Shown in pieces: positions 18,040 to 58,228 of a stretch of DNA of 64,000 nucleotides (its first letter is position 1; every line of letters starts with the position of its first letter). The notes under the pieces are model-generated. The model did not search any database. It was not told the origin of the DNA and saw only the letters and a program-made list of their open reading frames with translations. A program made the translations under genes and the position numbers. Source of the DNA: an uncultured Clostridia bacterium (lineage in GTDB: Bacteria > Bacillota > Clostridia > TANB77 > CAG-508); NCBI GenBank assembly GCA_944392805.1, contig CALXXZ010000001.1, positions 1,084 through 65,083 on the forward strand, given 5' to 3'.

Positions 18040-18130
18040 AAAGTCTGTCCCTTTTTTTCCTTTTGGGCAAAATGGGGACAGTCCCCAAATTGCCCTTTTG
18101 GAAAATTGGGGACTGTCCCAAAATTTTCCT
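18040..18130. repeat. GC-rich palindromic repeat element (GGGGACWGTCCCC family), copy 1; likely doubles as a terminator
   Basis: GGGGACAGTCCCC 18074-86 and GGGGACTGTCCC 18108-19 embedded in TTTTGG...AAATT context; a degenerate third core at 18046-54. Confidence 0.6.
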
Positions 18131-40121: not shown

Positions 40122-40160
40122 AAAGAGGACCGTCCCCTTTAAAAAGGGACGGTCCTCTTT
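40122..40160 (-). terminator. Strong hairpin terminator after mazF (about 16-bp GC-rich stem)
   Basis: AAAGAGGACCGTCCCCTTTAAAAAGGGACGGTCCTCTTT; the core GGGACGGTCC resembles the GGGGACWGTCCCC repeat family. Confidence 0.6.
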
Positions 40161-40166
40161 GGTGCA

Positions 40167-40514
40167 TTATTCTAAGCCGAAACTTACTCCTAATGCATTA
40201 TTTAATTTATTCATTATTTGTGTGTCATCTATATGCCCAATTTTTTCTTTCAATCTACTTTTATCTATTGTTCTTATTTGCTCAGCTAATACTACAGAAT
40301 TACTTTTTAACCCACTAGTATTTTCTCCAAGTTCTATGTGTGTTGGTAATTTCGCTTTATTAGTTTGGGACGTTATGGCAGCAGCAATTACAGTTGGACT
40401 ATATTTGTTACCTAAGTCATTCTGTATTATTAAAACAGGTCTAATTCCTCCTTGTTCTGAACCTACAACTGGACTTAAATCTGCATAAAACATATCGCCT
40501 CTTTTTACTATCAT
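40167..40514 (-). CDS. mazF: MazF/PemK-family endoribonuclease toxin (EndoA/NdoA-like)
   Basis: [33 protein letters not shown]...KLPTHIELG is nearly identical in pattern to B. subtilis EndoA; the track start (GTG at 40523) is probably 3 codons too long. Confidence 0.8.
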
Positions 40515-40630
40515 CTTCTTCACTCCTAAAATTAGTATATTTCAAGTCTATATATTTCTATATTTAAACTATTAGTTTGAAGTAAAGTCAATAGTATATT
40601 ACATATATATTTTCGTAAAGTGTACTAGTA

Positions 40631-51400: not shown

Positions 51401-54400
51401 TTATAATACAAACCTTTTAATTAATATAATTCCTACCAAAACTGTTACTAATAATCCTAATGTAAGCATGAAATATGTTTTTGTACTACCAGTTGCTACT
51501 GCTAATATTACTTGTGCTTCATCTATATCGTCTTCTCCTTCTTCTTGATTGTCTGGTGTTGAATCTCTATCTGGCACATCATATTCATTATCATCTTCTG
51601 ATATTTCTGCCACATTTGTTTTTAAGTTTAAGTTGTCTTCTCCATTTATCCATGTTAGTACAACTTCTACTATTGCACTTTCTCCTGGTTGTAGTAATGT
51701 TCCTTCTAGTTGTCTTGTAGATATTACATTATTTCCTTCATCTGTCCATTCTGGATTATCTTCTGCAACAAATTTTAATCCTTCTGGTACATAGTCTGTT
51801 ATTTCTGTTGCATATCCTGGAATATCTCCTTCATTTGTTATTTTTATTCCAAATCCGAATTTTACTGTTACTTCATCTAGTTTTTTTCTATGTAATTCTA
51901 CTTTTACTACTGGTTCTGGTACTTCTGTTCCATCATATCCTGTTTCTGTGATTTTTTCTACTCCATCTTCGATTACTATTGCTTTTGTTACATATTTTAA
52001 TAATGCTAAATCAAAATATTCTACTTTTACATTTTCTATGTCTTGGTCATCTTCTCCTTCATTCCACTCATCTGGTTCTGAGTCTTTATCTTTTATAGGG
52101 TTTCCTTCTTCATCTGTGTCATCTGATATTTGTGCATGGTTTGTTATTATATATTCATTTGAATTTGGGTCTTTTACTTTAAATGCTATTTTTATGTCTT
52201 TATAATGTAGTATTGTTCCATCAAATGCTTCTATTAAGTTGTCTTCTCCATTTTCTTTTGATAGATAATTTGTTTTTACTTTTACTGCTTCTTCTACATT
52301 TTCTGTTTCTTGGTCATTTTCGTCATACATTTTCCACATATATTCAACATTTGTTGAATCTTCTGGTAAATATTCTAGGAATTCTGGTATATCATCTGTT
52401 ATTTCACTTGCATATCCTGATATTTCTCCTTCATTATATATTCTTAATGTATATATAACTACATCATCAACATGTACTAATAATGGTTCTTTTGTATGTT
52501 CATATCTTATTTGCCCATTTTCATATTTTGCTTGTGGCTCTCTATCTGTAACAGGTCTATCTTTTACTTGTGTTATGAATTTTCTTAATGCTAAATCAAA
52601 TTCTTTTACATATACTTTTTCGAAGTCATCATCATCTTCGTTTCCTGGTACATATGGATTGTTTTCTTCATCTTGTTTATATCCTGGCAAATCTTTATCT
52701 TCTGGTATGTCTTCTTCTACATTGTTAGAACTTGAGTCTACATCTTCTGGCACTATTGTTTCACCATATTTATATTCTGATATTTCTGCTATATTTGTAA
52801 TTCTTTCATCAGGTATAGCATTTTCTGATATTTTACATTCTATCTGAATATCCTCATAATCTAATGTTGTTCCATTAAATGCATCTATTTCTTTATCTGT
52901 TAAATATTTAGTTGTAGCAAGTCTACCATCTTCTGATATCTGCCATTGATATCTGGTATTTATTTCACTATCAGCAACAAATTCCAAATATGGTGGTAAA
53001 TAATCTTTTACCTCGCTTGCATAACCATCAATTTCTCCTTCATTATATACTCTAATTGTGTATATTACTGTGTCTCCAACTTTTAATGCTACTGGTTTTT
53101 TAGAATGATTATATATTGCTGTTGTATCTGTTTTATTTACTAATGGACTTACATCTACTACTGGCTCTCTGTTTTGTGCCGTTTCATTTACTTGTGCTAT
53201 AAATTTTCTTAAACTTAAGTCAAATGTTTTTACATATAATTTTTCAAAGTCATCATCATCTTGTTCTCCTTTATAATAGTAATCACTATCTGTTAAATCA
53301 TCTTTATTATCTGTATGTCCTTTATAATCTTCCATGTTATCTTTATTTACATCTGGTGCATTTTCTGGTTCTGAATCTCTATCTACTGCTACAACATTAT
53401 CTTCTGTATCATATGCCCCGCTTATCCATGCTACATTTGTTAATATATTTTTGTCTCCTGCTTGTGGTTTATGTATTACTTTACATTGTAATTCTATTGT
53501 TTCATAATCTAGTTTTCCAGTTTCATATGCTTGTAAATCTTTTGGTGTTCCTGCTATATCAAATGTTATTTTGTTTGTTGTTGTGTCATATGTTACATTA
53601 TATGTATTTTTATCTGCTCCTGTAGAGTCTTTTGATGTTACTGTACTACTTGGTATATATATTAATCCAGTTGGCAATTGGTCTATTATTTGATTTGCAT
53701 ATCCTGTTTTTTCTCCTTCATTATATATTGTTATTGAATATGTTACTATATCATTTTCTTGAACATATACAGGATCTTTTTTATGATTGTATGTTGCTGT
53801 TGTTTCTGTTTGTAATGTATCTTCTGATATATTTGGTACTCTTTGTGGTAATTTTAAATTTGATAATTCTACTCCATTTATTTCTGTTATATATTTTCTT
53901 AATGCTAAATCAAATATTTTTACTTCTTCTGGTGCATGTGTATTTGTTGCTTTAAATCCAACTGTTGCTGTTCCTGATATTTCTACTTCATATCCTTCTG
54001 GTACATCATTTTCTATTACTTCATATACAATGTCTACTCCATCTTGTTTTTTTGGTAAATCTGTAAATGTATGTGTCCAGTTATTGCCTTCATCTAATGT
54101 TACAGTTTCTTTTACTTCTTTATTTGCAAGTAAACTTACACTTACTGATTCTGGTCTGATTCCATCTTGGTTATTTGCATCATCCCATACTTTTGTTACT
54201 GAAACTGATGTTAAGTCTGTTTCATGTGTATTTACTACTGTAAATCCATCTGTTGCATTTCCTTCAATACTTACTACATATCCTTCTGGAACATTTTTTT
54301 CTTGTACAATATATGTAATAGGATTTCCTCCTGATTTTAATGGTAAGTTTTCAAATGTATATTTCCATCCATTGCCTTCATTTAGTGTTACTGTTTCTTT

Positions 54401-57400
54401 TTCAACTCCGTTTGCAAGTAATGTTACATCTACTGAATCTGGTCTTAATCCATCTTGATTGTTATTATCTGACCAAACCTTAGTTACTGATATTTGTGTA
54501 ATTTCTGGTGTATGTTTATTTGTTATTATATATCCTGTTTCTGCATCTCCTGTTATTTCATTTGTATAACCTTCTGGTATGGTTTCTTCTACTGTATATT
54601 CTATTGGTTGTCCATTTGCTTTTACTGGTAAGTTTTCAAATGTATACTCCCATCCGTTTTCAGCATTTAATTCTACTGGATTTTTTGTTATTATAACTCC
54701 ATTTGCTTTTAATTCTACAAATATAGAGGTTGGTCTTATTCCATCTTGATTTTCTGCATCATCCCATACTTTACTTACATGTACTTGTGTTTCTTCTGGT
54801 GTATATGTGTTTGTTATTATATATCCTGTTTCTGCATCTCCTGTTATTTCTACTGTATATCCTGTTGGAACTTGAACTTCTTCTACTTCATAATTTATTA
54901 GATTACCATTTTTATATTTTGGTAAGTCTGTGAATTTTCCTGTCCAACCATTTTGTTCATTTAATGTTACTGTTTCTTTTTCTGCTCCATTTGCTAATAA
55001 TGTTACACTTACTGATGTTGGCCTTTTTCCATCTTGATTATTTGTATCTTCCCACACTTTTGTTACTGTTACACTTGTTTGTGGTTGTAAAATTAGCTTT
55101 TCGAAATCATCATCATCTTGTTCACCTTTGTAATAGTATTCATCATCTGTTAAATCATCTTTATTATCAGTATGTCCTTTATAATCTTCCATATTGTCTT
55201 TGTCTACATCTGGTGCATTTTCTGGCTCAGAGTCTCTATCTATTGCTACTTTATCTTCTTCTGTATCATATGCCCCGCTTATCCATGCTACATTTGTTAA
55301 TATTTTATCTGTCGTTTCACTTGGTACTTCTGTTACTACACATTGTATTTCTATTGTTTCATAATCTAAGTTTCCAACTTCATATGCTTGTAAATCTTTT
55401 GGTGTACCTTGTATATCAAATGTTATTTTGTTTGTTGATGGTTCATATGTTACTTTATATGTATTTTTGTCTGCTCCTGCTGAGTCTTTTGATGTTACTG
55501 TACTTCCTGGATTATATATTAGTCCTGTTGGTAGTTGGTCTATTATTTGACTTGCGTATCCTGATTTTTCTCCTTCATTATATATAGTTATTTTATATGT
55601 TACTATATCATCTGTTTCTACTGATACTGGGTCTTTTCTATGTTTATATGTTGCTGTTGTTCCTGTTTGTAATGCGTTTTCTTCTATTTGTGGTATTCTA
55701 TTGTTTATATCAGTTTGGTTTACTTTTGTTATATATTTTCTTAAACTCAAGTCAAATATTTTATGTGTATTTGTTATTGTATAATCATTTTTTTCATTTT
55801 CTGTTATTTGTGCTTCATATCCTTCTGGTACTACTTCTTCTATTGTATATACTATTTCTACACCTTCATCTCTATATTTTGGTAAATCTTTAAATGAGCC
55901 TGACCAATTATTATTTTGGTTTAATGTTAATGTTTTTCCTTCAACTTTATTTCCATCTGCTAATAAATTTACTGTTACCTGTTGTGGACGTATTTTATCT
56001 AAATTATCATGGTCATTCCATATTTTATTTACTTTTACTTCAGTAGTTTCTGGTGTATATGTATTTTGAATTGTAAAATTATTTTTTGAGTTTGTTACTA
56101 CATTTTCTGTATATCCTGTTGGAACTGTTTCTTCTTTAACAGTATATACAATTTCTTTTCCTGCTTTATATTTTGGTAAATTTGTAAATGTATATGACCA
56201 ATCTGTACTAGATGTTATTGTTATTGTTTGTCCATCAACTTTTTCTCCATCTGCATATAAACTAATTTGTATTGATGTTGGTCTTTTTCCATCTTGATTA
56301 TTTGAATCTATCCATTCTTTGTTTACTTCTACTTGTACAACTTCTGGTGTGTGTGAATTTGTAATTATATATCCTGTATCAGCTGTTCCTGATGACTCTG
56401 ATGTATAATTTGGTACTTGTTTTTCTGTTACAGTATATTCTATTTTTGTTCCATTTTGATATTTTGGTAAATTTTCAAATGTGTGGCTCCATCCATTTGA
56501 TTCATTTAATGTTGCTGTATCTACTAGATTTTCTCCATTTTTTAGTTCTACTTGTATTGATGTTGGTCGTATTCCATCTTGATTATTTGTATCATTCCAT
56601 TTTTTATTTACTGTTACATCTGTTATTTCTGGTGTATGACTATTTATAATTGTAAATGTTCCTGTTGGATTTTCTACTATTTGTTTTTGATATCCTGTTG
56701 GTACTTGTGCTTCTTCTACTGTATATTTTATATCTGCACCATTTTCATCCTTTTTCATTAGTCCTGTAAATGTGTATGTCCATTTATTTGCTTCATTTAA
56801 TGTTGCTCTTTCTACTTCTGTACTTCCATTTTTTAATATTACTTCTATTGATGATGGTCTCATTCCATCTTGATTGTTGCTATCTTGCCATTGTTTTATT
56901 ACTGTTATCTCTGTTTCTTCTAATTTAGCAGTTAATCCTACTGTTTCTTCATGTGGGTTTAACTCTAAATCTGCAACTGGCTGTTCTGCTTCTAATGTTA
57001 TTGTTGTTCCATTATCTGTTCCTTTTAACCATAATGTTTTTGTTGTTGTGTTATATGAAGTTTTTAATTCTATATTTACTTCATTTCCTAAATTACTTGG
57101 TATTGATATATATATATCTTGTCCAACTAATTTTTCTATGTTTTGTTCTTTTAATACTGTTCCTGAACTATTTGTAAATTTATATTTTGATGAATTTATT
57201 TCAGTTCCATCTCCACTTGTTACTTTTAATTCTATACTGTATTGTAATTCATTGTTTTTATCTATTCTTATTGGTCCTACTATATTATTATTACCTTTTC
57301 TTATAATCTGTAATTGATATTTTCCACTTTCATCTGTTGATAATCCTGTTGTATTTACATTTATTGGCTTACCGATTTTATAATTATTTTCTTGTGTATA

Positions 57401-58228
57401 GTATTTTGCATTGTTTATAGCTGAATCTATTAAATAATTATACAATATTCTAGCTTGTTCTTCTCTATCCTCTCCACCGTTTGCTATTTCTGATAATTGT
57501 GTATATCTTATACCATCTGTAGTCACAGTTAACCAATCATATAATGATTTTTTGTCAAATTCATTATCTCCATCTAATTTTGCATTCATGAAATACCATA
57601 TTACTGCTTGTTGTACTGCTTTTATATCACTGTCAGTTAGTACTGTATTATATTCATAAATTGTTACTTGGTCAGAATAATCATATCCATCTACTGGCTC
57701 ATAATAATATACATCATATTCATCATCATATTCTATTCCTATTTTTTCTAATAATTTGTCTTTATCTGAACTTCCAGGAATATAACTATTATCTAATACC
57801 CACAATAGTTCTCTGTAATAACCATTTGGATCTAAAATTTTTGCTACTATATCATCTGGTGTTCCTTGTGATGGGTTTCCAAGTAATTGTATTAATTTAT
57901 CTCTATCTTCTTGTAAATCAAATGATAAATTATATCCTACAATATTATCTACATTTATTTCCCATGATTCACCATATTCGCCTTTTAAACAATATAATTG
58001 TCTCTGCGCAACGCTTTCATCTCCTCTATTTCCTGAATCATAGTTTCTCAAATTCCATAATGTTTTACCACCATTATCTGGCCTTCCTATTGAATACCCC
58101 ATTCCGTCTTTGTGTGTAGCATTAATTCCTATGTATAATACTTCGTTTCCCGCAAAACTTACTAGATTGAATATTAGGTATACTACTAATAGTAATATTA
58201 CTCCTATAATAAGCACTTTTTTCTTCAT
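51401..58228 (-). CDS. Giant surface adhesin (2275 aa): thioester-domain-like N-terminus, multiple DUF11-type and CnaB-type repeat domains, C-terminal TM anchor
   Basis: Signal peptide; N-domain with LYCLKGEYG (Cys) and VQQAVIWYF (Gln) resembling TED motifs; about 10 CnaB repeats (KVWDDANNQDGIRP...); DUF11-like repeats (FDLALRKYITEINGV...TTATYNHKKDP); C-terminal VILAVATGSTKTYF + hydrophobic helix + KRFVL. Confidence 0.75.
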   Translation of the reverse strand: MKKKVLIIGVILLLVVYLIFNLVSFAGNEVLYIGINATHKDGMGYSIGRPDNGGKTLWNLRNYDSGNRGDESVAQRQLYCLKGEYGESWEINVDNIVGYNLSFDLQEDRDKLIQLLGNPSQGTPDDIVAKILDPNGYYRELLWVLDNSYIPGSSDKDKLLEKIGIEYDDEYDVYYYEPVDGYDYSDQVTIYEYNTVLTDSDIKAVQQAVIWYFMNAKLDGDNEFDKKSLYDWLTVTTDGIRYTQLSEIANGGEDREEQARILYNYLIDSAINNAKYYTQENNYKIGKPINVNTTGLSTDESGKYQLQIIRKGNNNIVGPIRIDKNNELQYSIELKVTSGDGTEINSSKYKFTNSSGTVLKEQNIEKLVGQDIYISIPSNLGNEVNIELKTSYNTTTKTLWLKGTDNGTTITLEAEQPVADLELNPHEETVGLTAKLEETEITVIKQWQDSNNQDGMRPSSIEVILKNGSTEVERATLNEANKWTYTFTGLMKKDENGADIKYTVEEAQVPTGYQKQIVENPTGTFTIINSHTPEITDVTVNKKWNDTNNQDGIRPTSIQVELKNGENLVDTATLNESNGWSHTFENLPKYQNGTKIEYTVTEKQVPNYTSESSGTADTGYIITNSHTPEVVQVEVNKEWIDSNNQDGKRPTSIQISLYADGEKVDGQTITITSSTDWSYTFTNLPKYKAGKEIVYTVKEETVPTGYTENVVTNSKNNFTIQNTYTPETTEVKVNKIWNDHDNLDKIRPQQVTVNLLADGNKVEGKTLTLNQNNNWSGSFKDLPKYRDEGVEIVYTIEEVVPEGYEAQITENEKNDYTITNTHKIFDLSLRKYITKVNQTDINNRIPQIEENALQTGTTATYKHRKDPVSVETDDIVTYKITIYNEGEKSGYASQIIDQLPTGLIYNPGSTVTSKDSAGADKNTYKVTYEPSTNKITFDIQGTPKDLQAYEVGNLDYETIEIQCVVTEVPSETTDKILTNVAWISGAYDTEEDKVAIDRDSEPENAPDVDKDNMEDYKGHTDNKDDLTDDEYYYKGEQDDDDFEKLILQPQTSVTVTKVWEDTNNQDGKRPTSVSVTLLANGAEKETVTLNEQNGWTGKFTDLPKYKNGNLINYEVEEVQVPTGYTVEITGDAETGYIITNTYTPEETQVHVSKVWDDAENQDGIRPTSIFVELKANGVIITKNPVELNAENGWEYTFENLPVKANGQPIEYTVEETIPEGYTNEITGDAETGYIITNKHTPEITQISVTKVWSDNNNQDGLRPDSVDVTLLANGVEKETVTLNEGNGWKYTFENLPLKSGGNPITYIVQEKNVPEGYVVSIEGNATDGFTVVNTHETDLTSVSVTKVWDDANNQDGIRPESVSVSLLANKEVKETVTLDEGNNWTHTFTDLPKKQDGVDIVYEVIENDVPEGYEVEISGTATVGFKATNTHAPEEVKIFDLALRKYITEINGVELSNLKLPQRVPNISEDTLQTETTATYNHKKDPVYVQENDIVTYSITIYNEGEKTGYANQIIDQLPTGLIYIPSSTVTSKDSTGADKNTYNVTYDTTTNKITFDIAGTPKDLQAYETGKLDYETIELQCKVIHKPQAGDKNILTNVAWISGAYDTEDNVVAVDRDSEPENAPDVNKDNMEDYKGHTDNKDDLTDSDYYYKGEQDDDDFEKLYVKTFDLSLRKFIAQVNETAQNREPVVDVSPLVNKTDTTAIYNHSKKPVALKVGDTVIYTIRVYNEGEIDGYASEVKDYLPPYLEFVADSEINTRYQWQISEDGRLATTKYLTDKEIDAFNGTTLDYEDIQIECKISENAIPDERITNIAEISEYKYGETIVPEDVDSSSNNVEEDIPEDKDLPGYKQDEENNPYVPGNEDDDDFEKVYVKEFDLALRKFITQVKDRPVTDREPQAKYENGQIRYEHTKEPLLVHVDDVVIYTLRIYNEGEISGYASEITDDIPEFLEYLPEDSTNVEYMWKMYDENDQETENVEEAVKVKTNYLSKENGEDNLIEAFDGTILHYKDIKIAFKVKDPNSNEYIITNHAQISDDTDEEGNPIKDKDSEPDEWNEGEDDQDIENVKVEYFDLALLKYVTKAIVIEDGVEKITETGYDGTEVPEPVVKVELHRKKLDEVTVKFGFGIKITNEGDIPGYATEITDYVPEGLKFVAEDNPEWTDEGNNVISTRQLEGTLLQPGESAIVEVVLTWINGEDNLNLKTNVAEISEDDNEYDVPDRDSTPDNQEEGEDDIDEAQVILAVATGSTKTYFMLTLGLLVTVLVGIILIKRFVL

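What the first reader, a model, noticed from the sequence alone, without database searches (positions are those of the whole stretch)
18040..18130. Dispersed GC-rich palindromic repeat family (GGGGACWGTCCCC) at gene ends, including both sides of polC
In a ~28% GC genome, the 13-bp near-palindrome GGGGAC(A/T)GTCCCC is embedded in a conserved TTTTGG...AAATT context. It occurs in pairs at 18040-18130, 22988-23056 and 32755-32820, and a related GGGACGGTCC hairpin lies at 40122-40160. The copies always sit between genes, where they can act as bidirectional terminators. The conserved sequence suggests a REP/BOX-like repeat family or a common protein-binding site rather than independent terminators.
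Basis: seen in the sequence. Interest (0 to 1): 0.5.

Follow-up and report, generated by a model that had tools for sequence, protein, structure and literature searches.

The report
REP-like palindromic repeats at gene ends
The GC-rich hairpins around polC and ddl are real copies of a small dispersed palindromic repeat, of the kind that elsewhere flanks a tyrosine (RAYT/TIRYT) transposase gene, so this is a new member of a known class rather than a new kind of element.

Summary
The 27% GC window has five full ~31-nt hairpin units, GG(G)-W6-GGGGAC-W-GTCCCC-W6-CC(C), plus two partial units. They form three arrays with a 34-nt period: 18043-18129, 22996-23050 and 32754-32818. None is expected by chance. 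All are intergenic but touch or overlap stop codons.

They are not independent terminators:
- Orthologous polC and ddl spacers in relatives (PolC 86-90% identical) are empty, as short as 12-15 nt.
- The nearest relative has the same arrays with a different unit number.
- An 83-nt composite recurs at 85% identity at an unrelated locus in another Clostridia MAG.

The GGGGACAG half-site matches GGGGWSAS, the published motif of repeats flanking TIRYT / Group 1 RAYT genes. In 262 motif-bearing loci from many phyla I found 11 such Y1 transposase genes, 8 with the core within about 80 nt. Five of six RAYT-like genes found independently on plasmids carry GGGG[AT]CAG repeats.

Best reading: a REP-like non-autonomous repeat family moved by a Y1 HUH transposase and co-opted as terminators. 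No transposase lies in the window, and the rest of the genome could not be searched. The 40122-40160 hairpin is at best a distant relative. Interest is moderate.

The parts
18043..18129 (.). Array 1, between the polC stop and the DUF1294 gene start. It holds a half unit (GTCTGTCCC-T7-CC, 18043-18060), a full hairpin unit at 18065-18095 and a full unit at 18099-18129. TTTT spacers lie on the + strand. The last bases overlap the polC TAG stop codon (18129-18131).
   Evidence: Sequence. Covariance-model hits of 50 and 35.5 bits. Folds as one long nested hairpin, -38.8 kcal/mol, z -5.0. It is 85/87 identical in L122. The site is empty in L125, L127 and L283. It is 85% identical over 83 nt to L043:2588-2670, at an unrelated locus.
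22996..23050 (.). Array 2, upstream of the polC start (22982) and downstream of ORF 23135-23854. It holds a full unit at 22996-23026 (core TGGGACAGTCCCC) and a truncated unit at 23031-23050 (GGAAATTTGGGGACAGAGTC).
   Evidence: Sequence. Covariance-model hit of 40.8 bits. Fold is weak (z -1.3 and -2.3). L122 has two full units here. L125 and L127 have none. L283, L284 and L126 carry diverged or degenerate units at the same site.
32754..32818 (.). Array 3, between convergent genes (ORF 31759-32754 on + and ddl 32813-33802 on -). It holds two perfect hairpins: GGGAAAAAAGGGGACAGTCCCCTTTTTTCCC (32754-32784) and GGTAATTTGGGGACTGTCCCCAAATTACC(C) (32788-32818). The ddl stop codon and last codon lie inside the second hairpin.
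   Evidence: Sequence. Covariance-model hits of 51 and 41 bits. Folds at -44 and -45 kcal/mol, z -7.4 on both strands. Flagged as terminator-like. Identical in L120 and L121. L122 has three units with compensatory arm changes. L123 and L125 have none.
40122..40160 (.). A doubtful relative. It is a single long hairpin, AAAGAGGACCGTCCC-loop-GGGACGGTCCTCTTT, just downstream of ORF 40167-40523 (- strand). Each arm contains GGACSGTCC.
   Evidence: Sequence. Only 15.6 bits, E 0.04, partial model match. Very stable fold, -40.4 kcal/mol, z -11. Cores with a central G or C also occur in L122 and L284 family units, so distant relatedness is possible but not shown.

Best explanation
These are copies of a REP-like, non-autonomous palindromic repeat family.

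The unit. It is a ~31-nt hairpin, GG(G)-W6-GGGGAC-W-GTCCCC-W6-CC(C). Units sit head to tail with a 34-nt period, separated by TTTT.

The family. The core half-site GGGGACAG is the GGGGWSAS motif. That motif marks the repeats flanking TIR-associated tyrosine transposases (TIRYT; Group 1 RAYT; TnpA-Y1 subclass 2.1).

Proposed mechanism. A single-copy Y1 HUH transposase, encoded elsewhere in the genome, recognises the hairpin on single-stranded DNA. It cuts and rejoins the DNA, seeding copies into permissive sites right after stop codons and changing the unit number within arrays. Copies are then inherited vertically for long periods. Arm complementarity is kept by selection.

Secondary function. 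Once in place, the hairpins are transcribed as mRNA 3' ends. The A6-stem-T6 unit serves as a bidirectional intrinsic terminator or 3' stabiliser.

Shown versus inferred. Shown: a repeat family far beyond chance; presence/absence and unit-number polymorphism at orthologous sites; dispersal to non-orthologous loci; association of the same core with Y1 transposase genes in other lineages. Inferred: that such a transposase exists and acts in this organism, the ssDNA mechanism, and terminator activity.
For: 1. Family beyond chance. There are five full and two partial units at three loci, with 0 expected.

2. Insertion polymorphism. The polC-DUF1294 spacer carries the 87-nt array in the window and in L122. 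It is 12-15 nt and empty in L125, L127 and L283, whose PolC is 86-90% identical. The ddl 3' spacer has 2 units in the window, 3 in L122 and none in L123 or L125.

3. Compensatory change. In L122, arm GGGAAAAAAGAGAAC pairs perfectly with GTTCTCTTTTTTCCC across an extra 34 nt. Across 17 units, column pair 4/28 covaries as AU, GC, CG and UA. The covariation score is 0.20 against 0.12 in shuffles.

4. Dispersal. Window array 1 matches L043 (another Clostridia MAG, different flanking genes) at 85% over 83 nt, with the same ends. A further unit lies at a different locus in L126.

5. Transposase link. Clustering ORFs from 262 motif-bearing loci gave a Y1_Tnp family. It hits PF01797 at E 1e-13 to 1e-15. 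Its best NCBIfam match is NF047646, REP-associated tyrosine transposase. In 8 of 11 loci the GGGACWGTCCC core lies within about 10-80 nt of the gene, often on both sides. Hosts include Olsenella, Peribacillus, Halomonas and Acidobacteriota.

6. Independent sample. Of six RAYT-like genes found by tblastn on plasmids, five are flanked by GGGG[AT]CAG repeats.

7. Literature. TIRs flanking TIRYT genes share GGGGWSAS. Some are self-complementary, form dimers or clusters, and make moderately abundant families (PMC3733652). Subclass 2.1 has motifs NHVH and Y[IV]HLNP/YIELNP, as in my proteins (PMC6006769). Group 1 RAYTs occur in 21 classes, including Clostridia (PMC5581495).

8. Motif specificity. Pairs of GGGACWGTCCC 20-26 nt apart give 24 stretches in viral contigs. 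Three same-composition control palindromes give 6, 1 and 1.
Against: - No Y1 transposase is encoded in the 64-kb window, by HMM or phmmer even at E up to 10, nor in about 140 kb of orthologous loci from relatives. The one exception is an unrelated IS200 in L126.
- The rest of the source genome could not be searched, so neither the cognate enzyme nor the copy number is known.
- The two AT-rich Firmicute RAYT-like clades I could inspect are coupled to comM-dprA and have no such repeats.
- The units lack the GTAG foot of canonical REPs.
- The motif-bearing loci were ascertained by the motif. With so many genomes searched, some cross-phylum sharing of a GC-rich palindrome could be coincidence.
- No target-site signature could be defined from filled versus empty sites.
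- L123 carries a different repeat family at the same two polC sites. That could mean these spacers simply tolerate any hairpin.
Confidence: 0.62

Rival explanations
1. These are ordinary intrinsic (bidirectional) terminators that arose in place. Their similarity reflects selection for a stable GC stem flanked by A and T runs, plus local duplication. No mobility is involved.
For: All arrays lie at gene 3' ends or between genes. The unit at 32754-32784 is a textbook A6-stem-T6 hairpin and is flagged by the terminator scan. Folds are very stable. Single hairpins of the form AAAAAGGGGACWGTCCCCTTTTT occur in unrelated low-GC genomes (L014, L015, L030, L051, L075, L092), as expected if some are convergent terminators.
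Against: - Similarity extends well beyond what termination needs: 83 nt at 85% identity between unrelated loci in different MAGs, with the same ends.
- Array 2 lies upstream of polC, and its minus-strand (sense) hairpins are followed by A runs, not U runs.
- Units include truncated halves.
- Orthologous spacers of 12-15 nt in relatives need no terminator.
- The same core flanks Y1 transposase genes.
- Control palindromes of equal composition are 4- to 24-fold rarer as pairs.
Confidence: 0.12
2. The 13-bp perfect palindrome is an operator or array of binding sites for a dimeric DNA-binding protein (a regulator or nucleoid-associated protein). The arrays are then regulatory sites, for example for polC.
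For: The core is a perfect palindrome, strictly conserved while the arms vary. Tandem sites lie just upstream of the polC start. Published subclass 2.1 Y1 proteins carry a C-terminal HTH. A DNA-binding, non-transposing role for a domesticated enzyme therefore cannot be excluded.
Against: Most copies sit at 3' ends and overlap stop codons. Sites are present or absent among close relatives with the same gene order. No regulator gene is linked. The arms covary as a hairpin, which double-stranded operators do not need.
Confidence: 0.1
3. The units are miniature inverted-repeat elements (MITEs) moved by a classical DDE transposase whose terminal inverted repeats end in GTCCCC...GGGGAC, not by a Y1 enzyme.
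For: The 34-nt period unit, GTCCCC-W6-CC-TTTT-GG-W6-GGGGAC, reads as an inverted-repeat element. L122 has exactly one extra such unit at the centre of a hairpin.
Against: No target-site duplication is visible at filled versus empty sites. No DDE transposase gene recurs next to the motif in 262 loci, whereas a Y1 gene does. The extra unit can equally arise by slippage in an array of alternating inverted repeats.
Confidence: 0.06

Closest known systems
TIR repeats of TIRtrons / TIRYT genes (Di Nocera et al. 2013, PMC3733652). The same group is TnpA-Y1 subclass 2.1 (Quentin et al. 2018, PMC6006769) and Group 1 RAYT (Bertels et al. 2017, PMC5581495).
   Same: - The core contains GGGGACAG, which fits the published GGGGWSAS motif.
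- Copies are self-complementary, occur as dimers or clusters, and appear moderately abundant.
- The identical 11-13-nt core directly flanks Y1 transposase genes with subclass 2.1 motifs (NHVH, Y[IV]HLNP/YIELNP, C-terminal HTH) in several phyla.
- Group 1 RAYTs are reported in Clostridia.
   Different: - The published description concerns the gene flanks and a few genomes (Stenotrophomonas, Acidobacteria, Rhodopirellula).
- Here the copies are AT-armed hairpins in a 27% GC uncultured gut Clostridia-like genome, in 34-nt-period arrays, with no transposase gene in reach.
- Quentin et al. found no REP-like structures next to subclass 2.1 genes with their search criteria.
Canonical REP/BIME/REPIN-RAYT systems of Enterobacteria and Pseudomonas
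   Same: - Short extragenic palindromes at gene 3' ends, often in alternating orientation at regular spacing.
- Vertically inherited at orthologous sites.
- Proposed mobilisation by a single-copy HUH Y1 enzyme.
- Secondary roles in termination and mRNA stability.
   Different: - No GT[AG]G foot.
- A perfect rather than imperfect palindrome with a one-base centre.
- AT-rich arms.
- A different RAYT group.
Neisseria DNA-uptake-sequence inverted pairs and other conserved terminator hairpins
   Same: A conserved sequence repeated as inverted pairs that double as terminators downstream of genes.
   Different: There is no evidence for an uptake bias here. The arrays are multi-unit and are linked to a transposase family in other genomes.
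Firmicute small repeats (BOX, RUP, bcr1, EFAR, STAR)
   Same: Intergenic, repeated and hairpin-forming elements in low-GC Gram-positive bacteria.
   Different: There is no sequence or architectural similarity. There are no Rfam matches. Those elements are longer (100-200 nt) or modular.

Membership tests
TIRYT-associated TIR/REP-like repeats (GGGGWSAS type) | Repeat contains the GGGGWSAS motif | tested here: met
   Every full core reads GGGGACAG on one strand. The motif definition is from PMC3733652 and PMC6006769.
TIRYT-associated TIR/REP-like repeats (GGGGWSAS type) | Repeats form a dispersed family, often self-complementary and in dimers or clusters | tested here: met
   Three arrays of 1.5-2.5 units in 64 kb. 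Further copies lie at other loci in L043 and L126. The genome-wide number could not be counted.
TIRYT-associated TIR/REP-like repeats (GGGGWSAS type) | A Y1 (TIRYT / Group 1 RAYT) gene flanked by the same repeats in the same genome | not testable with these tools
   There is none in the window. In other genomes with the identical core the feature is met in 8 of 11 cases.
Canonical REP / REPIN-RAYT | Conserved GT[AG]G tetranucleotide at the foot of an imperfect palindrome | tested here: not met
   Units start GG(G)W6 and end W6CC(C). There is no GTAG or GTGG at either foot.
Canonical REP / REPIN-RAYT | Extragenic location, inverted doublets, persistence at orthologous sites | tested here: met
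   All copies are intergenic. The central base alternates A then T in arrays 1 and 3. All three sites are occupied in both the window and L122, which are about 89-93% identical in DNA.
Intrinsic transcription terminators | GC-rich stem followed by a U run, downstream of a gene on the sense strand | tested here: inconclusive
   Met for 32754-32784 on both strands. Weak for array 1, where the core is followed by AUUUUG on the sense strand. Not met for array 2 on the polC sense strand. There are no transcript data.
DDE-type MITE | Terminal inverted repeats plus a target-site duplication | tested here: not met
   Filled sites (window, L122) compared with empty sites (L125, L127, L283) show no duplicated flank. 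Flank divergence limits this test.
CRISPR array / type III toxin-antitoxin RNA repeats | Regular repeats separated by unique spacers, or a repeat array next to a toxin gene | tested here: not met
   Spacers are 4 nt (TTTT). There are no cas or toxN-like genes nearby and no Rfam hit.

The most novel reading that the evidence does not exclude
GGGGACWGTCCCC may be the almost invariant core of one pan-bacterial REP superfamily. It would be carried with Group 1 RAYT/TIRYT genes across more than ten phyla and across 26-75% GC, with only the arms adapting to each host. The gut Clostridia-like clade sampled here would hold a long-lived, vertically inherited population of it. A sister species has replaced that population, at the very same polC spacers, with a different hairpin family (GTGCA-N4-TGCAC). 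That would point to site-specific targeting or family turnover driven by co-evolving transposases.
Probability: 0.3. Interest if true: 0.6.

Novelty: new member of a known kind. Interest (0 to 1): 0.4.

Why it matters
REP-RAYT systems have been studied almost only in Proteobacteria. This result places a REP-like family with the TIRYT-type GGGGWSAS core in an uncultured, very AT-rich gut Firmicute. It comes with clean filled and empty orthologous sites, and with units that supply stop codons to essential genes (ddl, polC).

For annotation, these hairpins should be masked as repeats and not called as independent terminators or small RNAs.

More broadly, the same 13-bp palindrome recurs as pairs and arrays in many phyla and is enriched over control palindromes. 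That suggests the recognition site of Group 1 RAYTs is far more conserved than those of the well-studied groups. If so, the enzyme-site pair would be easy to test biochemically.

Tried and rejected
- **Genome-wide count.** The single genome-contig scan used a pattern that proved too general.
- **Extending the window.** Exact-protein look-ups returned only short contigs or nothing.
- **Cognate RAYT in this clade.** A homologue search with the Peribacillus RAYT, followed by picking AT-rich hits, led to a different RAYT-like clade. That clade is coupled to comM-dprA and has no GGGGWSAS repeats.
- **Rfam.** No family matched in the window or in 18 motif-bearing loci. The weak LhrC and miRNA hits are noise.
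- **Literature.** A full-text search for the exact sequence found only unrelated eukaryotic oligonucleotides.
- **IS200 in L126.** Considered as the mobilising enzyme and rejected. It has its own, different hairpins, and L126 has no GGGAC cores near it.
- **Insertion at the palindrome centre.** I considered this as the growth mechanism because of the extra 34 nt in L122. It cannot be told apart from slippage, because an array of alternating inverted repeats is palindromic about every centre.
- **Noc/ParB-like site.** The Peribacillus junction TATTTCCCGGAAATA resembles the NBS site as I recall it. I dropped this because it is absent from the window's family.

Full report
**What is in the sequence**

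The window is 27.2% GC. The 13-mer GGGGACWGTCCCC occurs exactly at 18074, 32763 and 32797. It occurs with one mismatch at 18108 and 23005. Shuffles give 0.00 exact matches and 0.05 at up to two mismatches.

Reading the DNA shows that each core is the centre of a longer hairpin unit, GG(G)-W6-GGGGAC-W-GTCCCC-W6-CC(C). Units follow each other with a 34-nt period, separated by TTTT on the + strand. I delimit three arrays:
- 18043-18129: a half unit plus two units.
- 22996-23050: one unit plus a truncated one.
- 32754-32818: two perfect units.

I built a covariance model from 17 units of this clade and ran it over the whole window without filters. It finds exactly these five full units (35-51 bits) and nothing else above 16 bits.

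The hairpin at 40122-40160 scores only 15.6 bits (E 0.04). It is a single 21-bp-stem hairpin whose arms contain GGACSGTCC. I treat it as a possible distant relative at most.

**Gene context**

Genes here run mostly on the minus strand.
- Array 1 lies between the polC stop codon and the start of a DUF1294 gene.
- Array 2 lies between an unknown ORF and the polC start.
- Array 3 lies between an unknown + strand ORF and ddl, which converge.

The arrays are intergenic but butt against the genes. The polC TAG and the TAG of ORF 31759-32754 each share a base with the first G of a unit. The final Gly codon and the TAA of ddl lie inside the arm GGGTAATTT.

**Structure**

- Array 3 folds into two perfect hairpins on either strand (-44 and -45 kcal/mol, z -7.4).
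- Array 1 folds as one long nested hairpin (-38.8 kcal/mol, z -5).
- Array 2 folds weakly.

Across the 17 units, 85% of cells pair. Column pair 4/28 covaries through AU, GC, CG and UA. The middle of the W6 arms is often mismatched.

The A6-stem-T6 unit looks like a bidirectional intrinsic terminator and is flagged as terminator-like. Array 2 does not look like a terminator on the polC sense strand.

**Comparison with relatives**

The source is an uncultured organism. The same DNA is found in ENA and Logan gut-type assemblies. PolC homologues at 81-97% identity are common in metagenome contigs. I fetched orthologous loci for seven of them.

L122 (PolC 97%; DNA about 89-93% identical) has all three arrays, with these differences:
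- The polC-downstream array is 85/87 identical, which is better conserved than its flanks.
- The polC-upstream array has two full units instead of 1.5.
- The ddl array has three units instead of two. The arms GGGAAAAAAGAGAAC and GTTCTCTTTTTTCCC carry two complementary changes each.

The more distant relatives differ as follows.

| Locus | PolC identity | polC-DUF1294 spacer | Upstream of polC |
|---|---|---|---|
| L125 | 90% | 12-15 nt, RBS only | no element |
| L283 | 90% | 12-15 nt, RBS only | diverged unit |
| L127 | 86% | 12-15 nt, RBS only | no element |
| L284 | 89% | tandem GTGTCGGTTC repeats, perhaps a diverged variant | diverged unit |
| L126 | 88% | 46 nt, no element | degenerate unit |

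L125 also has no element at ddl. The diverged cores upstream of polC are GAACCGTCCCC (L283) and GGGGACGGTCC (L284). L126 also holds a good unit at a different locus.

L123 (88%) has a different tandem hairpin repeat at both polC flanks: GTGCAGTTTTGCAC-GRGAAAAAAGCGAGATAAT, with a 35-nt period.

Array 1 also matches a locus with unrelated flanking genes in another Clostridia MAG (L043). The match is 85% over 83 nt and has the same ends, GTCTGTCCC... and ...GGGACTGTCCCAAAATTGCCC.

Together these results show a dispersed, polymorphic repeat family that is inherited at orthologous sites. They do not fit independently evolved terminators.

**The core elsewhere**

Its 118 loci came from many phyla at 27-72% GC, often in pairs or arrays and often several per genome. 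A metagenome scan for two cores 20-26 nt apart again hit the limit, with dozens of distinct contexts.

Such scans are ascertained by the motif, so I ran a control in viral contigs. The real pair pattern gave 24 stretches. Three palindromes of the same composition gave 6 (GGGTCWGACCC), 1 and 1. The motif is therefore special. Notably, the best control is the other form allowed by GGGGWSAS.

**Link to a transposase**

I extracted all ORFs from 262 motif-bearing loci and clustered them. Apart from generic families, one cluster stood out: a 180-280-aa protein present in 11 loci from different phyla.
- It hits Pfam Y1_Tnp at E 1e-13 to 1e-15.
- Its best NCBIfam match is NF047646, REP-associated tyrosine transposase. 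One member is above the curated cut-off.
- Database homologues are named RayT or REP-associated tyrosine transposase.

In 8 of the 11 loci, GGGACWGTCCC cores lie within about 10-80 nt of the gene, often on both sides. Examples are Olsenella L077 and Peribacillus L057. One further gene is flanked by GGGGTCWGACCCC instead.

As a sample not chosen by the motif, I searched plasmids by tblastn with one of these proteins. Of six regions inspected, five have GGGG[AT]CAG repeats at the gene flanks. The sixth, a Clostridia replicon, has TAGGGACGGTT twice.

**What is already known**

- Di Nocera et al. (PMC3733652) described RAYT-like 'TIRYT' genes flanked by inverted repeats that share GGGGWSAS. Some are self-complementary, arranged in dimers or clusters, and form moderately abundant families.
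- Quentin et al. (PMC6006769) equate most TIRYTs with TnpA-Y1 subclass 2.1 (HuH motif NHVH, Y motif Y[IV]HLNP/YIELNP, C-terminal HTH). These features match my proteins.
- Bertels et al. (PMC5581495) call this Group 1 RAYT. It is the most widespread group (21 classes, including Clostridia), and its flanking 16-mers occur about 12 times per replicon.

GGGGACAG fits GGGGWSAS. The window's elements are therefore best filed as a new member of this known kind. They are not canonical REPs, because they lack the GT[AG]G foot.

**Mechanism and limits**

I propose that a Y1 HUH enzyme recognises the hairpin on single-stranded DNA and seeds or rearranges units. This would match what has been shown for E. 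coli TnpA-REP and IS200/IS605 enzymes, according to the cited literature. The hairpins would then be retained as mRNA 3' structures and terminators.

The enzymatic step is inference here. There is no Y1 gene in the window or in about 140 kb of relatives' loci, except an unrelated IS200. The rest of the genome could not be reached. No target-site signature could be defined. The extra 34-nt unit in L122 could be either insertion or slippage.

**Verdict**

- Novelty is that of a new member of a known kind.
- Interest is moderate (0.4). It could rise if the cross-phylum invariance of the 13-bp core, and the replacement of one repeat family by another at identical sites, prove general.

Noticed in passing
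L123:9740-10001 and L123:14875-15033: In a sister species (PolC 88% identical), both polC flanks hold a different tandem hairpin repeat: GTGCAGTTTTGCAC-GRGAAAAAAGCGAGATAAT, 35-nt period, three to four units. These are exactly the two spacers that hold the GGGGAC family in the window. No copies were found in the other fetched loci.
   Followed up: partly
L280, L281 and L285-L289 (for example L285:2501-4624): A RAYT-like Y1 gene in 30-37% GC Firmicute contigs abuts comM (stop and start are adjacent) and is followed by dprA. It has no GGGGWSAS repeats nearby. It looks like a domesticated HUH gene in a DNA-processing operon.
   Followed up: partly
window 1-9800 and 9870-10032: The left end of the window looks like a prophage. 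HTH_3, Sipho_Gp157 and DnaB_2 are annotated on the matching contig L282. It ends next to tRNA-Gln and tRNA-His.
   Followed up: no
window 51401-58228 and 58818-63347 (- strand): Two giant ORFs (2275 and 1509 aa) are built from internal repeats of about 290 nt and about 600 nt. They are probably repeat-rich surface proteins.
   Followed up: no
window 23135-27480: A duplicated block of small genes: copies are 72-83% identical at a 2080-nt offset. It lies just upstream of polC array 2, and its gene content differs between the window and L122.
   Followed up: no
window 35316-37198 (- strand): An AAA_21 ATPase plus RloB pair, which resembles an OLD/abortive-infection-type defence module, according to the Pfam annotation of the identical contigs L120 and L121.
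   Followed up: no
L126:15160-16190: An IS200-type TnpA (168 aa) with its own flanking hairpins (AACCCCGTGTTTTACGCGGGGTT and AACCACGTGTTTTACACGTGGTT) is inserted next to the DUF1294 gene in a relative. It is unrelated to the GGGGAC family.
   Followed up: yes
window 18043-18129 versus L122:14804-14890: The polC-downstream array is 85/87 identical between two genomes whose flanking DNA is only about 92.6% identical. This suggests purifying selection or homogenisation of the array.
   Followed up: partly
L241:4650-5990; L292 (Rhodospirillum rubrum plasmid): Some RAYT-like genes are flanked by the sister palindrome GGGGTCWGACCCC. This was also the only control palindrome with an elevated pair count in viral contigs (6, against 1 and 1). 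The two cores look like alternative recognition sites within one transposase clade.
   Followed up: partly
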